Positions 1,411-50,617 of a stretch of DNA of 64,000 bases are shown in pieces; within the stretch, counting starts at the first letter, position 1; every line of letters begins with the position of its first letter. Both the position numbers and the translations under genes were made by a program. The notes below the pieces were generated by a model. That model saw nothing but the letters and a program-made list of their open reading frames with translations. It did no database searches and was not told the DNA's origin. This stretch comes from a virus. Where the stretch lies: positions 37,469 to 101,468 of IMG/VR virus record IMGVR_UViG_3300050013_000165; one strand, 5' to 3'.

Positions 1411-1703
1411 GACGAAAAGTTCACCTCCTTCAGGTTTACCTAGTCGTCATGGCGCGACTCCTTAATCATTTGAATTCCTTTCGTTCCGAATTTCGGAAAG
1501 CCGATCAACGTAGCACGCGATAATGCCCCGACGCAGAGCGAGGGCGACTCTCTCTGAATCAGGGCATCGTCGGGAGCTACCCAACACTCGCCTGCGCTTG
1601 GTGAGCCGGTCATCTTCGTCACGGCCGGAATTTGGACTCCGGCTTGCTCGTCGATGGGAGTGCGGACTTTCGGCGCGCAGACCGCAGCACTCGCATTAGC
1701 CAG

Positions 1704-1776
1704 CTCCCCCAGGAGGACTTGAACCTCCGACCCTCGGATTAACAATCCGGTGCTCTGCCGACTGAGCTACAGGGGA
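1704..1776 (-). tRNA. tRNA-Asn (GTT), CCA not encoded
   Basis: Reverse complement TCCCCTG TA GCTC AGTCGGCA GAGC A CCGGA TTGTTAA TCCGA GGGTC GGAGG TTCAAGT CCTCC TGGGGGA G: full cloverleaf, G73 discriminator. Confidence 0.93.
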
Positions 1777-47948: not shown

Positions 47949-48482
47949 ATGTCAACAGCAACGGAAGTAACAAGGCGGTCAAGCACGCGTCCACGACGCC
48001 CTGATTTCATCAAGCTGTTCAAGCAGTGGCTTGGTGTGAAGGACATTGTTGGGCAGACATCTGATCGACAGGACACTCTTCGCAAGCGGATTCTCACTGG
48101 CGTTGAAGAGTTCGGGGAAGAGGATGACAACGGCAACCACTGGATTTATCTTCCAGAGCCGATTTCATTCACCGACTGGAACGGGAAGACGTTTCGTTAT
48201 GCAGCGTTGAAGCGAGAACGTCACCTCACACCAGCAAATCCTGTCCCGGTCGATGACAAAGCTGAAGTGCTTCTTCGCAAGAAGGGTCTGTGGCTAACCG
48301 CAGCGCAGGAAAAGGTTCTTACGGACATTCAAACGGCGAACCCGTTTGTGAACATCAGCATTGAGCTGAATCGAGATGAGTTCACGCGAGGGCTCTTCTT
48401 GAAGCGATATACGGATGCTGAGTACGAGCGCACATTGTGCGAGCAGAAGCCGTCATTTCAATTTCGACCGAGTGAGTCATAA
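47949..48482 (+). CDS. Conserved hypothetical phage protein
   Basis: GAGGAGG RBS; GEEDDNGNHW motif. Confidence 0.7.
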   Translation: MSTATEVTRRSSTRPRRPDFIKLFKQWLGVKDIVGQTSDRQDTLRKRILTGVEEFGEEDDNGNHWIYLPEPISFTDWNGKTFRYAALKRERHLTPANPVPVDDKAEVLLRKKGLWLTAAQEKVLTDIQTANPFVNISIELNRDEFTRGLFLKRYTDAEYERTLCEQKPSFQFRPSES

Positions 48483-48510
48483 GGAGGTTCACAAGGACAA
48501 AAGATTCGCA

Positions 48511-48583
48511 CTGGCTGGTGCGTAGCTCTGAGTTACTTCTCACTATTGCAGACAAATACTCGGGGTAATTGGTTCTCAGCCAG
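48511..48583 (+). ncRNA. Y-RNA-like ncRNA, unit 1 (minimal)
   Basis: Closing stem CTGGCTG/CAGCCAG; GTGCGTA; inner stem GCTCTGAGT/ACTCGGGGT; GTTACTTC; TTGGTTCT. Confidence 0.75.
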
Positions 48584-48591
48584 GTTTCGCA

Positions 48592-48662
48592 GCGGTAGAT
48601 GCGAAGGCAATGGGTTACTTCTTTTGGTGAAAACACCCGACGCCGTTTTGGTTCACTGCCGC
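48592..48662 (+). ncRNA. Y-RNA-like ncRNA, unit 2 (minimal)
   Basis: GCGGTAG/CTGCCGC; ATGCGAA; GGC..GGGT/ACCC..GCC; GTTACTTC; TTGGTTCA. Confidence 0.75.
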
Positions 48663-48671
48663 GATATTTAA

Positions 48672-48807
48672 GTGGGCGATGCGAAGATTTGGGTTACTTC
48701 CATGTTAAGGACGGAGTCGCTGGTTCGAATCCAGTCATCGGGGCTTGCCTCGATGTAGCTCAGTGGTAGAGCACGTACATTTCCCGAGTCGTTTGGTTCA
48801 CGTCCAC
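48672..48807 (+). ncRNA. YrlA-like Y RNA, unit 3, with circularly permuted tRNA domain
   Basis: GTGGGCG/CGTCCAC; T arm GCTGG-TTCGAAT-CCAGT, closed acceptor CATCGGGG..CCTCGATG, then D arm TAGCTCAGTGGTAGAGC. Confidence 0.88.
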
Positions 48808-48815
48808 GCTTTGTA

Positions 48816-48919
48816 GTTGCAGATGTGATGTTTACCGGTTACTTCTTTGGATTAGAGAGAGGTCTTCGGGCCTTGGTGGTTCAAACCCACCTCACCGGTT
48901 GCGAACGGTTCACTGCAAC
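48816..48919 (+). ncRNA. Y-RNA-like ncRNA, unit 4 (UUCG hairpin + T arm)
   Basis: GTTGCAG/CTGCAAC; GTTACTTC; AGGTC-TTCG-GGCCT; GGTGG-TTCAAAC-CCACC. Confidence 0.78.
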
Positions 48920-48927
48920 GCTTTTTG

Positions 48928-49047
48928 AGTGCCAGAAGTGAAGAGAGCGAGTTACTTCTATGAGTATTGGTTCGAATCCAAGCGTCCTGAAAGGGGCGAC
49001 GCCCTAACGGCTTGGGCAAACTCGTTTTCGTTTGGTTCTCTGGCACT
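48928..49047 (+). ncRNA. Y-RNA-like ncRNA, unit 5 (T arm + two hairpins)
   Basis: AGTGCCAGA/TCTGGCACT; GAGAGCGAGT/ACTCGTTTTC; GTTACTTC; TTGG-TTCGAAT-CCAA; GCCC..GGGC. Confidence 0.8.
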
Positions 49048-49090
49048 GCCAATTTCAATCAAATTCAATTCAACTGAGGAAAGGAACGAA

Positions 49091-50617
49091 ATGCCAAAGT
49101 TCTCGCAGCATCCAAAGCCTGCGGTGCACCACCCGATTCAAACGTCGGGTGAAGACGTTATTAACTGGGAGGGAGCGAGCGCCTATGGCCTCGATCCCAA
49201 GTCCGATCTGTTCTTGCTCGCTTGCACAAACATGGTCGGAGAAGAGACTTTCTATGAGAGCGCTTCTGATCGAGACAACCGGTTCGAAAAACTCATTCAC
49301 CGAAACGTGCACGAAGACCCCGAGTGGGTTGCACGGTTCGCCCCATTTCTCCGCGGCCCAATGGGCATGCGCTCCGCTTCGGCGGTTCTTGCGTGTGAGT
49401 ACATCAAGGCCGGTGGTCCTGAGGGCCGTAAAGTCGTTGACTCAGTCTGCCAGCGTGCAGACGAGCCCGCCGAGATCATCGGGTACTGGCATTCCCGCCA
49501 CGGTCGCAAGTTGCCACAGCCGATCAAGCGTGGCGTTGCTGACGCTGCCAAGCGTCTGTACAACGAGCGCAACGTTCTTCGGTACGACGGCGAGCGTCGA
49601 GGAATTCGCTTCGCTGACGTAATCGAGCTGACTCACCCCAAGCCGCGAGAGGATTGGCAGGCTCGCCTATTCAAGTACCTGCTCGACAATCGTCACCACG
49701 ACGATGCGAACATTGAAGGCCTTGGCCTCATTGCCGGTGACCGGCTTTGGCTCGACATGCCAGAAGACATGCGTCGAGTCAACCTTCGAGAGAACGGAAT
49801 TCCTGATGGTTGGTCGTGGGAGCGTCTTGCCGGTTGGCTCCCCGGCGGCATGGATGCTGAAGGGTGGGAGGCTGTTATCCCGAACATGGGTGTAATGGCG
49901 CTCATCCGAAACCTTCGGAACTTTGATCAGAAGAACATCTCGGATGCGGCTATCGACAAGGTGATTGCGAAGATCACCGACAAGACCGAGGTCGAGAAGT
50001 CTCGTATTTGGCCGCATCAAGTGTGGGCGGCTTATCGCGAGGCTCCATCAGACAACTGGAAGCGAGCGCTTGGGACAACCCTGACGCTGGCAACACAGAA
50101 CACGCCGGAGCTTCCTGGTTCGACGTTGATCCTGATCGACATGTCAGGCTCAATGCAACAGGGCATCTCCAATCGTGGAACCGTTCAGCGAATCGAGATC
50201 GCTGCTGTAATGGCGACTGCAATGGCAAAGAAGAACAACGCCGACATTGTTGTCTTCGGTCAGAGTCATGCTCGATTTGATTTGCCATCGGGCGCATCAA
50301 CGCTCAATTGGGTGCAGGAGATTGTTCGCAACATTGGTTGTGTCGGTCATTCCACGTATCTTCACTCGGCGATTCGTGCAACATGGCATCCGCATTACAG
50401 CCGGGTTGTCGTGTTCACCGATGACCAGGCTCAGGATGCTCGTCAGGTGCCGCTCAACGATGTTTCGCCGATCTACACCTTCGACCTTGCCGGTTACGGC
50501 CGAGCATCGTTGACAGCGGGTGAGCGGGGACGGTTCCGTTTCGGCGGATTCTCCGACAAGCTCCTGACGGCCATTCCAGTGCTCGAATCGGGCAATGACG
50601 GAACCTGGCCGTTCTAA
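49091..50617 (+). CDS. rsr: Ro60/Rsr orthologue (TROVE + vWA domain)
   Basis: TFYES, RADE, DVIELTHPKP, MALIRNLRN, vWA MIDAS DMSGSM and VFTDDQ, GFSD; RBS GAGGAAAGGA before ATG 49091. Confidence 0.92.
   Translation: MPKFSQHPKPAVHHPIQTSGEDVINWEGASAYGLDPKSDLFLLACTNMVGEETFYESASDRDNRFEKLIHRNVHEDPEWVARFAPFLRGPMGMRSASAVLACEYIKAGGPEGRKVVDSVCQRADEPAEIIGYWHSRHGRKLPQPIKRGVADAAKRLYNERNVLRYDGERRGIRFADVIELTHPKPREDWQARLFKYLLDNRHHDDANIEGLGLIAGDRLWLDMPEDMRRVNLRENGIPDGWSWERLAGWLPGGMDAEGWEAVIPNMGVMALIRNLRNFDQKNISDAAIDKVIAKITDKTEVEKSRIWPHQVWAAYREAPSDNWKRALGTTLTLATQNTPELPGSTLILIDMSGSMQQGISNRGTVQRIEIAAVMATAMAKKNNADIVVFGQSHARFDLPSGASTLNWVQEIVRNIGCVGHSTYLHSAIRATWHPHYSRVVVFTDDQAQDARQVPLNDVSPIYTFDLAGYGRASLTAGERGRFRFGGFSDKLLTAIPVLESGNDGTWPF

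What the first reader, a model, noticed from the sequence alone, without database searches (positions are those of the whole stretch)
48511..50617. Phage Ro60 gene preceded by a tandem array of five Y-RNA-like ncRNAs with one scaffold and different payloads
Seen: the ~540 nt upstream of the TROVE/vWA gene contains five units (48511-583, 48592-662, 48672-807, 48816-919, 48928-49047). Each has a 7-9 bp closing stem whose sequence differs between units but always pairs, then a 5' RWGYGWWG motif and an inner stem. An invariant GTTACTTC follows (48532, 48614, 48693, 48838, 48951), then a variable insert and YGGTTCW before the closing strand. Unit 1 begins GGCTGGTGCGTAG, close to the vertebrate Y RNA 5' end GGCUGGUCCGA. 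Inserts: short loops (units 1, 2), full permuted tRNA (3), UUCG hairpin plus T arm (4), T arm plus two hairpins (5). Established: bacterial Ro60 (Rsr) binds Y RNAs (Yrn, YrlA/B) encoded next to it, which act as gates/tethers, e.g. to PNPase; some phages carry Ro/Y pairs. Inference: a five-member modular array in a phage is a repertoire of Ro60 RNPs with interchangeable effector modules. It could redirect host RNA decay/repair or neutralise tRNA-targeting defences. No RtcB is seen in the window.
Basis: partly seen in the sequence, partly recalled or inferred. Interest (0 to 1): 0.92.

Follow-up and report, generated by a model that had tools for sequence, protein, structure and literature searches.

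The report
Five Y RNAs before phage Ro60
A peat-soil phage carries five small Y-RNA-type genes in a row in front of its Ro60 RNA-binding protein gene; the array is real, but arrays of two to six such RNAs proved common next to Ro60 in actinobacteria and their phages, so this is a large example of a known system.

Summary
Five units (48511-49047, + strand) share one scaffold: a closing stem, a Ro60-type 5' motif, an inner stem, invariant GUUACUUC, a variable insert and a GGUUC 3' motif. Both stems differ between units yet always pair. The gene behind them (49091-50617) is a TROVE + vWA Ro60 homologue, related to the solved Thermus phage phiLo Ro60.

The array is not exceptional. The same scaffold lies upstream of Ro60, on the same strand, in cultured actinophages (Trax 4 units, BRock 4, GiJojo 5). 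It also occurs in most of 80 viral and 80 cellular actinobacterial Ro60 loci. Detected units per locus run from 0 to 6, usually 2 or 3. Covariation across 32 short units is strong.

Unit 3 is a YrlA-type tRNA mimic. Units 1 and 2 are short YrlB-like hairpins. Units 4 and 5 are intermediate forms with a T arm.

This is a large new member of the known Ro60/Y-RNA kind, published with at least two Y RNAs per species. Expression, Ro60 binding and the proposed anti-defence role are untested.

Two points may interest specialists: the invariant UUACUUC at the start of the loop domain, where eukaryotic Y RNAs carry UUAUC, and the size of the array.

This scan has noted Ro60-like genes beside RNA arrays on other DNA (175 notes).

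The parts
48511..48583 (+). Unit 1: short Y RNA (YrlB-like). It has an 8-bp closing stem, GGUGCGUAG (48517-48525), GUUACUUC (48532-48539), a short loop and UGGUUCU.
   Evidence: Fold -25.5 kcal/mol, z -3.1. Model R1 scores 55.1 bits, but this unit was in the training set. Its 5' 28 nt share 22/28 positions with mouse Y1.
48592..48662 (+). Unit 2: short Y RNA (YrlB-like). It has a 7-bp closing stem, GAUGCGAAG (48598-48606), GUUACUUC (48614-48621) and UUUGGUUCA (48647-48655).
   Evidence: R1 scores 54.2 bits, but this unit was in the training set.
48672..48807 (+). Unit 3: YrlA-type Y RNA. It has GAUGCGAAG (48678-48686) and GUUACUUC (48693-48700). A small hairpin with the 7-nt loop AUGUUAA follows, then a T arm (48719-48735). 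Next come a closed 7-8 bp acceptor-like stem (48736-48755), UA plus a D arm (48756-48772) and UUUGGUUCA (48792-48800).
   Evidence: Rfam YrlA RF02553 aligns full length (model 1-114) at 34.9 bits, E 8.6e-6, which is below the gathering score of 69. Fold; positions.
48816..48919 (+). Unit 4: Y RNA with a tRNA-shaped module in unpermuted order. It has GAUGUGAUG (48822-48830) and GUUACUUC (48838-48845). A hairpin with a GG-containing loop, a UUCG-capped hairpin (UUCG at 48865-48868) and a T arm (48875-48891) follow, then CGGUUCA.
   Evidence: R1 scores 35.9 bits, E 6e-6, and this unit was not in the training set. Fold z -2.9. There is a weak tRNA-Sec-like alignment of 17.5 bits.
48928..49047 (+). 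Unit 5: divergent YrlA-like Y RNA. It has a 9-bp closing stem, GAAGUGAAG (48935-48943), GUUACUUC (48951-48958) and a T arm (48967-48981). Two further hairpins follow, the second with a 4-bp stem and a 9-nt GG-containing loop like a D arm. The unit ends with UUUGGUUCU (49031-49039).
   Evidence: Fold -47.6 kcal/mol, z -3.9. Positions. The 5'-half HMM gives 9.6 bits, the fourth best hit in the 101-kb record.
48584..48927 (+). Four U-rich spacers of 8-9 nt between the units: 48584-48591, 48663-48671, 48808-48815 and 48920-48927. They are the likely endonucleolytic processing sites of a common precursor.
   Evidence: Sequences. No terminator-like or promoter-like site lies inside the array on the + strand. 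That these are processing sites is inferred from the M. smegmatis precedent (PMC4201824).
49076..49085 (+). Ribosome-binding site GAGGAAAGGA of the Ro60 gene.
   Evidence: Read directly from the sequence.
49091..50617 (+). Phage Ro60 (TROVE + vWA) gene, 508 aa (P0001).
   Evidence: Pfam TROVE 44 bits (cut-off 23) and VWA_2 26.5 bits (cut-off 27). PDB 9KOP/9L5Y, the phiLo Ro60, at E 2.9e-43. 38% identity to the 'Ro-like RNA binding protein' of Streptomyces and Gordonia phages. 51-56% identity to Acidimicrobiales MAG proteins.

Best explanation
The 537-nt stretch 48511-49047 is a tandem array of five Y RNA genes that belongs to the phage's Ro60 gene.

Shown:
- Each unit has the architecture of bacterial Y RNAs: the 5' and 3' ends pair into a long stem that carries the Ro60-type 5'-strand motif.
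- The stems covary.
- The scaffold is conserved upstream of Ro60 genes across actinobacteria and their phages.

Inferred:
- The array is transcribed together with the neighbouring genes. No promoter or terminator is detectable, and only 28 nt separate it from the preceding ORF and 43 nt from the Ro60 start.
- Host RNases cut it at the 8-9 nt U-rich spacers. RNase P may also cut at the 7-bp acceptor-like stem of unit 3.
- The five RNAs each bind phage Ro60 through the common stem.
- Their different apical modules (two plain loops, one YrlA tRNA mimic, two partial tRNA mimics) then gate Ro60 or tether it to different partners. Partners could include host PNPase or tRNA-binding enzymes, retargeting host RNA decay or quality control during infection.
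For: - Motif enrichment and anatomy.
- Every unit folds with its ends paired.
- Cognate strands pair far better than non-cognate strands.
- A MAFFT alignment of 32 short units from phages and bacteria gives 97.6% paired cells in the closing stem, with 7 of 10 pairs changed on both sides. The inner stem gives 87.9%, with 6 of 7. The covariation score is 0.404, against 0.129 for shuffles (0/500 as high) and at most 0.107 for slid partners.
- A covariance model of the scaffold finds unit 4, which was not in the training set, at 35.9 bits. It finds nothing else in 64 kb on either strand.
- Unit 3 aligns full length to Rfam YrlA at E 8.6e-6.
- All 356 hits of the 5'-half HMM lie on the Ro60 strand. 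In the 160 viral and cellular loci tallied, 317 of 328 hits lie within 1.6 kb upstream of the gene.
- The protein is a TROVE + vWA homologue of the phiLo Ro60. That protein binds two upstream Yrl RNAs and forms a complex with host PNPase in vitro (PMC12135203).
- In M. smegmatis, YrlA and YrlB lie upstream of rsr, bind Rsr and are cut from one precursor. YrlB has a T arm (PMC4201824).
Against: - Only contigs from DNA or unclassified runs could be laid, so there are no transcript data. Discrete RNAs, their ends and Ro60 binding are not shown.
- Units 4 and 5 have GUG instead of GCG in the Ro60 motif. They score weakly with the family HMM (8.8 and 9.6 bits), so they may bind less well or not at all.
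- Unit 3 is below Rfam's gathering score (34.9 against 69 bits).
- Partners of the apical modules are unknown for any YrlA-type RNA.
Confidence: 0.8

Rival explanations
1. The structured region is mainly a cis-acting leader of the Ro60 mRNA. Ro60 would bind its own 5' UTR to autoregulate translation or stability, and no stable separate RNAs would accumulate.
For: The array ends 43 nt before the Ro60 start codon. No terminator-like site lies between them and no promoter-like site lies within or after the array. In most loci the units lie within 1.6 kb upstream on the same strand.
Against: In the species tested experimentally, such upstream units accumulate as separate Rsr-bound RNAs processed from a precursor (PMC4201824). 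Closed stems separated by short U-rich spacers are what a processed polycistron looks like. The two roles do not exclude each other.
Confidence: 0.1
2. The tRNA-like modules act mainly as decoys or sponges for host tRNA-directed factors such as anticodon nucleases, modification enzymes or tRNA-sensing defences. Ro60 would serve only to stabilise them.
For: Three of the five units carry canonical T loops (GGUUCGAAUCC, GGUUCAAACCC). Unit 3 has T, acceptor-like and D arms. In 60 YrlA-type units of the family, the hairpin after UUACUUC has an anticodon-loop-like 7-nt loop: C32 in 40/60, U33 in 41/60, A38 in 44/60. [quoted passage not shown]
Against: Units 1 and 2 have no tRNA-like part yet keep the scaffold. 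Cellular actinobacteria carry the same kinds of units, so the system is not phage-specific counter-defence. No tRNA repair gene (RtcB) is in the record.
Confidence: 0.07
3. The units are decayed remnants of a tRNA gene cluster or small protein-coding ORFs, with no Ro60-related role.
For: In BRock-like phages the Ro60 gene lies inside a tRNA cluster. Annotators have placed small hypothetical ORFs (Trax genes 89-93) and a tRNA-Arg (GiJojo gene 29) over such units.
Against: ARAGORN finds no tRNA in the array. The conserved parts are the non-tRNA handle and UUACUUC. Compensatory stem changes and strict strand and position linkage to Ro60 are not expected of pseudogenes or ORFs.
Confidence: 0.02

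Closest known systems
Mycobacterium smegmatis YrlA and YrlB with Rsr (Chen et al. 2014, PMC4201824); Rfam YrlA RF02553
   Same: The RNAs lie upstream of the Ro60 gene on the same strand and are cut from one precursor. The 5' and 3' ends pair into a stem with a GCGAAG-type 5' motif. One RNA has T, acceptor-like (7 bp) and D arms, and another is shorter with a T arm. The published M. smegmatis YrlA 5' probe is complementary to UUACCACUUC, a close variant of UUACUUC.
   Different: There are five units instead of two, separated by only 8-9 nt. The 3' strand motif (UGGUUC) is also conserved. Unit 3 scores below the Rfam gathering cut-off. The element is phage-borne.
Thermus phage phiLo Ro60 with Yrl1 and Yrl2 (PMC12135203; PDB 9KOP, 9L5Y)
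   Same: A phage-encoded Ro60 with Y-like RNAs carrying a CGAA motif directly upstream. The proteins are homologous (E 2.9e-43). In phiLo, binding to the RNAs and a complex with host PNPase were shown in vitro.
   Different: Two RNAs against five. No tRNA-like modules are described for phiLo. The host phylum differs.
Actinophage loci found here: Streptomyces phages GiJojo (5 units) and BRock (4), Gordonia phage Trax (4)
   Same: The scaffold is identical (GAUGCG[A/U/C]AG, 7-8 nt, (G/A)UUACUUC). The arrays mix YrlA-type, T-arm-only and short units in tandem just upstream of the 'Ro-like RNA binding protein' gene.
   Different: Ro60 is only 38% identical. The 3' motifs differ by lineage: UUUCUA in BRock-like phages, AGUUCCC in Gordonia phages and GGUUC(A/U) here. 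Those loci sit in tRNA clusters, whereas this one sits in the DNA replication module. The RNAs are unannotated or mis-annotated in the records.
Vertebrate Y RNAs and nematode sbRNAs
   Same: Several paralogous RNAs share one Ro60-binding stem and have different loops. A conserved UUAUC lies at the 5' end of the loop domain (PMC4450293, PMC4726728), where these units have UUACUUC. The unit 1 5' half shares 22/28 positions with mouse Y1 (Y1 sequence from PMC4597359).
   Different: There is no match to the Rfam Y_RNA model at E up to 10. The Ro helix here has an internal loop rather than a bulged C. tRNA-like modules are absent from animal Y RNAs. Reviews regard bacterial Y RNAs as not homologous to the vertebrate clades (PMC4726728).

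Membership tests
Bacterial/phage Y RNA (Ro60-associated, YrlA/YrlB class; Chen et al. 2014) | Encoded within about 4 kb of a Ro60 ortholog, on the same strand | tested here: met
   The units lie at 48511-49047 (+) and the Ro60 CDS at 49091-50617 (+).
Bacterial/phage Y RNA (Ro60-associated, YrlA/YrlB class; Chen et al. 2014) | Long stem formed by pairing of the 5' and 3' ends | tested here: met
   All five folds close with 7-9 bp plus an inner stem. Cognate strands pair better than non-cognate strands. Family covariation supports the stems.
Bacterial/phage Y RNA (Ro60-associated, YrlA/YrlB class; Chen et al. 2014) | Conserved 5'-strand Ro60-binding motif (GNCGAAN0-1G) | tested here: inconclusive
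   Units 2 and 3 have GCGAAG. Unit 1 has GCGUAG, a variant common in the family. Units 4 and 5 have GUGAUG and GUGAAG, variants that are rare in the family.
Bacterial/phage Y RNA (Ro60-associated, YrlA/YrlB class; Chen et al. 2014) | Accumulates as a discrete small RNA and is bound by Ro60 | not testable with these tools
   Expression and binding need transcript data and a binding assay, which these tools could not supply.
YrlA (Rfam RF02553) | T arm, closed acceptor-like stem and D arm, in that order, on top of the Ro60-binding stem | tested here: met
   Unit 3 has a T arm at 48719-48735, an acceptor-like stem at 48736-48755 and a D arm at 48758-48772. It aligns to model positions 1-114. Unit 5 has the same order with a degenerate D arm.
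YrlA (Rfam RF02553) | Score at or above Rfam's gathering cut-off (69 bits) | tested here: not met
   Unit 3 scores 34.9 bits, E 8.6e-6 in the local search, and nothing passes at gathering. It is YrlA-like by anatomy but is not called by the curated threshold.
Metazoan Y RNA (Rfam Y_RNA) | Match to the covariance model | tested here: not met
   There is no Y_RNA match at E up to 10, either in 48400-49150 or in the most Y-like relative, L095. Only the 28-nt 5' half resembles it.
Ro60 / Rsr protein (TROVE + vWA) | TROVE domain followed by a vWA domain, with homology to solved Ro60 structures | tested here: met
   TROVE scores 44 bits (cut-off 23). VWA_2 scores 26.5 bits (cut-off 27, just under). 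PDB 9KOP matches at E 2.9e-43. The NCBIfam Rsr equivalog scores only 28 bits against a cut-off of 900, so this is a divergent ortholog.
tRNA | Recognised as a tRNA gene (cloverleaf with anticodon arm) | tested here: not met
   ARAGORN finds only tRNA-Asn at 1703-1776. The Rfam tRNA model gives 16 bits against a cut-off of 29 in unit 3.

The most novel reading that the evidence does not exclude
The invariant UUACUUC at the 5' end of the loop domain is the bacterial and phage counterpart of the eukaryotic Y RNA/sbRNA UUAUC motif. It would then mark a second, so far unknown, conserved binding partner of Y RNAs across domains of life. It keeps the same position and the same 6-8 nt spacing from the Ro60 motif, and it is retained even in units that have no tRNA-like part. 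Phages such as this one would have expanded the scaffold into five adaptors to reprogram host RNA metabolism or to decoy tRNA-directed defences. Here the array sits in the DNA replication module.
Probability: 0.12. Interest if true: 0.75.

Novelty: new member of a known kind. Interest (0 to 1): 0.4.

Why it matters
This array shows that phage and actinobacterial Ro60 genes typically come with sets of Y RNAs built on one handle. These sets are often larger than the two per species documented experimentally.

It also gives a simple hallmark for annotating them: GNUGCGNAG, then 6-8 nt, then UUACUUC. Public phage records currently leave these RNAs unannotated, or label them as small ORFs or as a tRNA.

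Cultured relatives with 4-5 units (GiJojo, BRock, Trax) offer tractable systems. They could be used to ask what the different apical modules recruit and what a phage gains from Ro60.

Tried and rejected
- **Rfam at gathering thresholds:** nothing in the array.
- **Megablast of the locus against phages:** no match.
- **Single-protein scan of IMG/VR:** no relatives. An alignment query was needed.
- **Exact pattern GATGCGWAG-N7-9-GTTACTTC in IMG/VR:** 49 loci. Only about 12 are real (TROVE gene plus several motifs). The rest are single matches at about the number I estimate by chance.
- **First MAFFT alignments of units (A1, A2):** they misaligned the 3' ends and were not used.
- **Covariance model R1:** it handles short units only. 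It truncates unit 3 and misses unit 5 because of the long inserts, even with filters off. Array sizes were therefore counted with a 5'-half HMM, which undercounts variant units.
- **Helix 2 of my first structure (Ro-motif pairing):** poorly supported, 55% paired, and trimmed from four pairs to two for the model.
- **The look-up of encoding contigs:** The closest protein relatives (59-68% identity) could not be placed on DNA.
- **Sequencing runs:** no RNA holder listed. Contigs from peat and permafrost runs were identical to the window where they covered it, so they gave no natural variants.
- **Supplementary tables of Chen et al. 2014:** not held.
- **Sim et al. 2020 review:** not held.
- **'Permuted tRNA-Asn with a GUU anticodon' for unit 3:** across 60 YrlA-type relatives the three loop positions vary (GUU 14, GCU 6, UUU 4, many others), while the loop frame is conserved. 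A specific Asn origin is therefore not supported.
Full report
**What is in the sequence**

The intergenic stretch runs from a 177-aa ORF of no known family (stop at 48480-48482) to the next gene. It holds five units at exactly the coordinates given: 48511-48583, 48592-48662, 48672-48807, 48816-48919 and 48928-49047.

Each unit is built the same way:
- a closing stem of 7-9 bp;
- a 5' motif (GGUGCGUAG, GAUGCGAAG twice, GAUGUGAUG, GAAGUGAAG);
- a 6-7 nt inner-stem strand;
- the invariant GUUACUUC;
- an insert of 28-94 nt, measured from GUUACUUC to the GGUUC motif;
- the other inner-stem strand;
- YGGUUC(A/U);
- the closing strand.

GTTACTTC occurs five times in 427 nt on the + strand. The whole window, both strands, has 8 copies against 0.94 expected.

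All five units fold with their ends paired. The stem sequences differ between units but match within a unit. For the closing stems, cognate duplex energies average -11.5 kcal/mol and non-cognate ones -3.5. For the inner stems the figures are -10.6 and -4.0.

The spacers are 8-9 nt and U-rich. No sigma-70-like promoter or intrinsic terminator lies in or after the array on the + strand.

**The gene and the genome**

The ORF that formally opens at GTG 48929 overlaps unit 5. The real start is ATG 49091, behind GAGGAAAGGA. Homologues, including the annotated BRock protein, align from residue 1 of that start.

The 508-aa product has a TROVE domain (44 bits, cut-off 23) and a vWA domain (26.5 bits, cut-off 27). 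It matches the solved Ro60 of Thermus phage phiLo at E 2.9e-43.

The window is part of a 101-kb IMG/VR record, estimated 68% complete. It encodes a portal, a tail sheath, a baseplate protein and DnaB. Around the locus lie a primase, an SNF2 helicase, UDG, PolA and RecA.

The record has one tRNA gene (Asn) and no RtcB.

The DNA recurs unchanged in contigs of peat and permafrost metagenome runs. The nearest Ro60 proteins on cellular contigs are from Acidimicrobiales/Acidimicrobiia MAGs, at 51-56% identity. This suggests a host of that class. The host assignment is an inference.

**The units belong to a large family**

Looking upstream of Ro60 genes elsewhere changed the picture.

Cultured actinophages carry the same scaffold in tandem just before their 'Ro-like RNA binding protein' gene. 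Gordonia phage Trax has 4 units, and Streptomyces phages BRock and GiJojo have 4 and 5. YrlA-type and short units are mixed.

I examined 80 IMG/VR Ro60 loci and 80 cellular actinobacterial loci. The heptamer UUACUUC, preceded by (C)CGGUGCG(A/C/U)AG and 6-8 nt, is present upstream on the gene's strand in most of them.

An HMM of the 5' half gave 356 hits, all on the Ro60 strand. In the 160 viral and cellular loci tallied, 317 of 328 hits lay within 1.6 kb upstream of the gene.

Detected units per locus:

| Units | 0 | 1 | 2 | 3 | 4 | 5 | 6 |
|---|---|---|---|---|---|---|---|
| Viral loci | 7 | 9 | 41 | 15 | 3 | 2 | 0 |
| Cellular loci | 11 | 13 | 20 | 24 | 7 | 0 | 1 |

The single six-unit locus is from a Micromonospora. 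These counts are lower bounds, because variant units score weakly.

Five units is therefore the upper tail, not a singular case. The nearest relatives of this Ro60 have fewer detectable units. Viral loci L055, L056 and L073 have 0-2, and Acidimicrobiia MAGs have 0-2. This array thus looks like a lineage-specific expansion.

**Structure support**

I aligned 32 short units from phages and bacteria with MAFFT, which does not fit the alignment to any structure. The pair counts follow.
- The closing stem is paired in 97.6% of cells, with changes on both sides at 7 of 10 pairs.
- The inner stem is paired in 87.9%, with 6 of 7 pairs changed on both sides.
- The covariation score is 0.404, against 0.129 for shuffles (0 of 500 as high) and at most 0.107 for slid partners.

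A covariance model from that alignment recovers unit 4, which was not in the training set, at 35.9 bits (E 6e-6). It finds nothing else in the 64-kb window. It cannot span the long inserts of units 3 and 5.

In the whole 101-kb record, the five best hits of the 5'-half HMM are the five units.

**The inserts**

- **Unit 3** aligns over the full length of Rfam YrlA (34.9 bits, E 8.6e-6, below the gathering score of 69). It has a T arm, a closed 7-8 bp acceptor-like stem, UA and a canonical D arm.
- **Unit 5** has the same order with a degenerate D-like hairpin.
- **Unit 4** has a GG-loop hairpin, a UUCG-capped hairpin and a T arm in normal tRNA order.
- **Units 1 and 2** are plain hairpins, like the short 'YrlB' class.

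This matches what is published. [quoted passage not shown] The M. smegmatis YrlA and YrlB are cut from one precursor upstream of rsr, and YrlB has a T arm. [quoted passage not shown]

**The conserved motifs**

The 5' strand is the known Ro60-binding side (PMC4201824; bioRxiv 10.1101/312249).

The 3' motif varies with the Ro60 lineage:
- GGUUC(A/U)C here, in an Acidimicrobiales MAG (L160) and in the closest viral loci;
- UGAUCUC in most other actinobacteria;
- UUUCUA in BRock-like phages;
- AGUUCCC in Gordonia phages.

This pattern suggests co-evolution with the protein. That is an inference.

UUACUUC contains the UA that kinks Salmonella YrlA and is conserved in YrlAs (10.1101/312249). In YrlA-type units its UUC starts a small hairpin with an anticodon-loop-like 7-nt loop. 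It is equally invariant in units with no tRNA-like part.

UUACUUC occupies the position of the UUAUC motif of nematode sbRNAs and vertebrate Y RNAs (PMC4450293, PMC4726728). The 5' 28 nt of unit 1 share 22/28 positions with mouse Y1, and 0 of 2000 shuffles score as well (Y1 sequence from PMC4597359, Y4 from PMC4346264). No unit matches the Rfam Y_RNA model. This is therefore a resemblance, not demonstrated homology.

**How it most likely works**

Shown:
- the anatomy;
- covariation;
- linkage to Ro60;
- family membership by architecture.

Inferred:
- co-transcription with the flanking genes;
- cleavage at the U-rich spacers;
- binding of each RNA to phage Ro60 through the common stem;
- recruitment of different partners by the apical modules.

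The phiLo Ro60/Yrl/host PNPase complex, formed in vitro, is the nearest phage precedent (PMC12135203).

**Novelty**

Phage Ro60/Y RNA pairs are published, and so are multiple modular Y RNAs per genome. I found no paper that describes tandem sets of 4-6 units or the UUACUUC hallmark. The library is incomplete, so this is not proof of absence.

Earlier notes of this scan report RNA arrays beside Ro60-like genes in many other phages. Those listed mostly concern more divergent proteins, some with a different handle. I did not test them.

I file this as a new, unusually large member of a known kind, of moderate interest.

Noticed in passing
L005 (Streptomyces phage GiJojo) 1262-1410; L002 (Gordonia phage Trax) 849-1259: Public annotations overlie Y-RNA units. 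GiJojo gene 29, 'tRNA-Arg(cct)' (1269-1343, also called by ARAGORN), starts at the GAUGCGUAG handle of a YrlA-type unit. Trax hypothetical protein genes 91-93 cover three of its four units. These are probably mis-annotations.
   Followed up: partly
Loci L055-L214, upstream of Ro60 genes: In 60 YrlA-type units, the hairpin that begins with the UUC of UUACUUC has a 7-nt loop with an anticodon-loop frame: C32 in 40/60, U33 in 41/60, A37 in 36/60, A38 in 44/60. The middle triplet is variable, with GUU the commonest (14/60). Unit 3 of the window has AUGUUAA.
   Followed up: partly
L003 848-920 (BRock), L005 718-791 (GiJojo); window 1703-1776 (-): In BRock-like phages a genuine tRNA-Asn(GUU) gene lies directly upstream of the first Y-RNA unit. 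The only tRNA gene of this phage's 101-kb record is also Asn(GUU), but it lies 47 kb away on the other strand.
   Followed up: no
Many loci, about 10-16 nt upstream of the CCGGUGCG handle: A short motif (A)ACUUCA recurs just 5' of many units in cellular and viral arrays. BRock has AACUUCA and AAUUUCA. It may be a processing or promoter signal. The window's spacers do not carry it, but the stretch after unit 5 (49048-49075) has AAUUUCAA and AAUUCAA repeats.
   Followed up: no
L194 (Micromonospora sp.), 1042-1778: Six scaffold hits lie upstream of one cellular Ro60 gene, the largest array seen here.
   Followed up: no
window 47949-48482 (+): The 177-aa ORF directly before the array has no match in Pfam, PHROGs or NCBIfam. 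It ends 28 nt before unit 1 and may belong to the same transcription unit.
   Followed up: partly
L002 830-887 (Trax): Just before the first Trax unit lies a stem (CUGACUG...CAGUCAG) that encloses a canonical T arm (GCGGGUUCGAAUCCCGC). It has no Ro60 handle and may be a further tRNA-like minihelix element.
   Followed up: no
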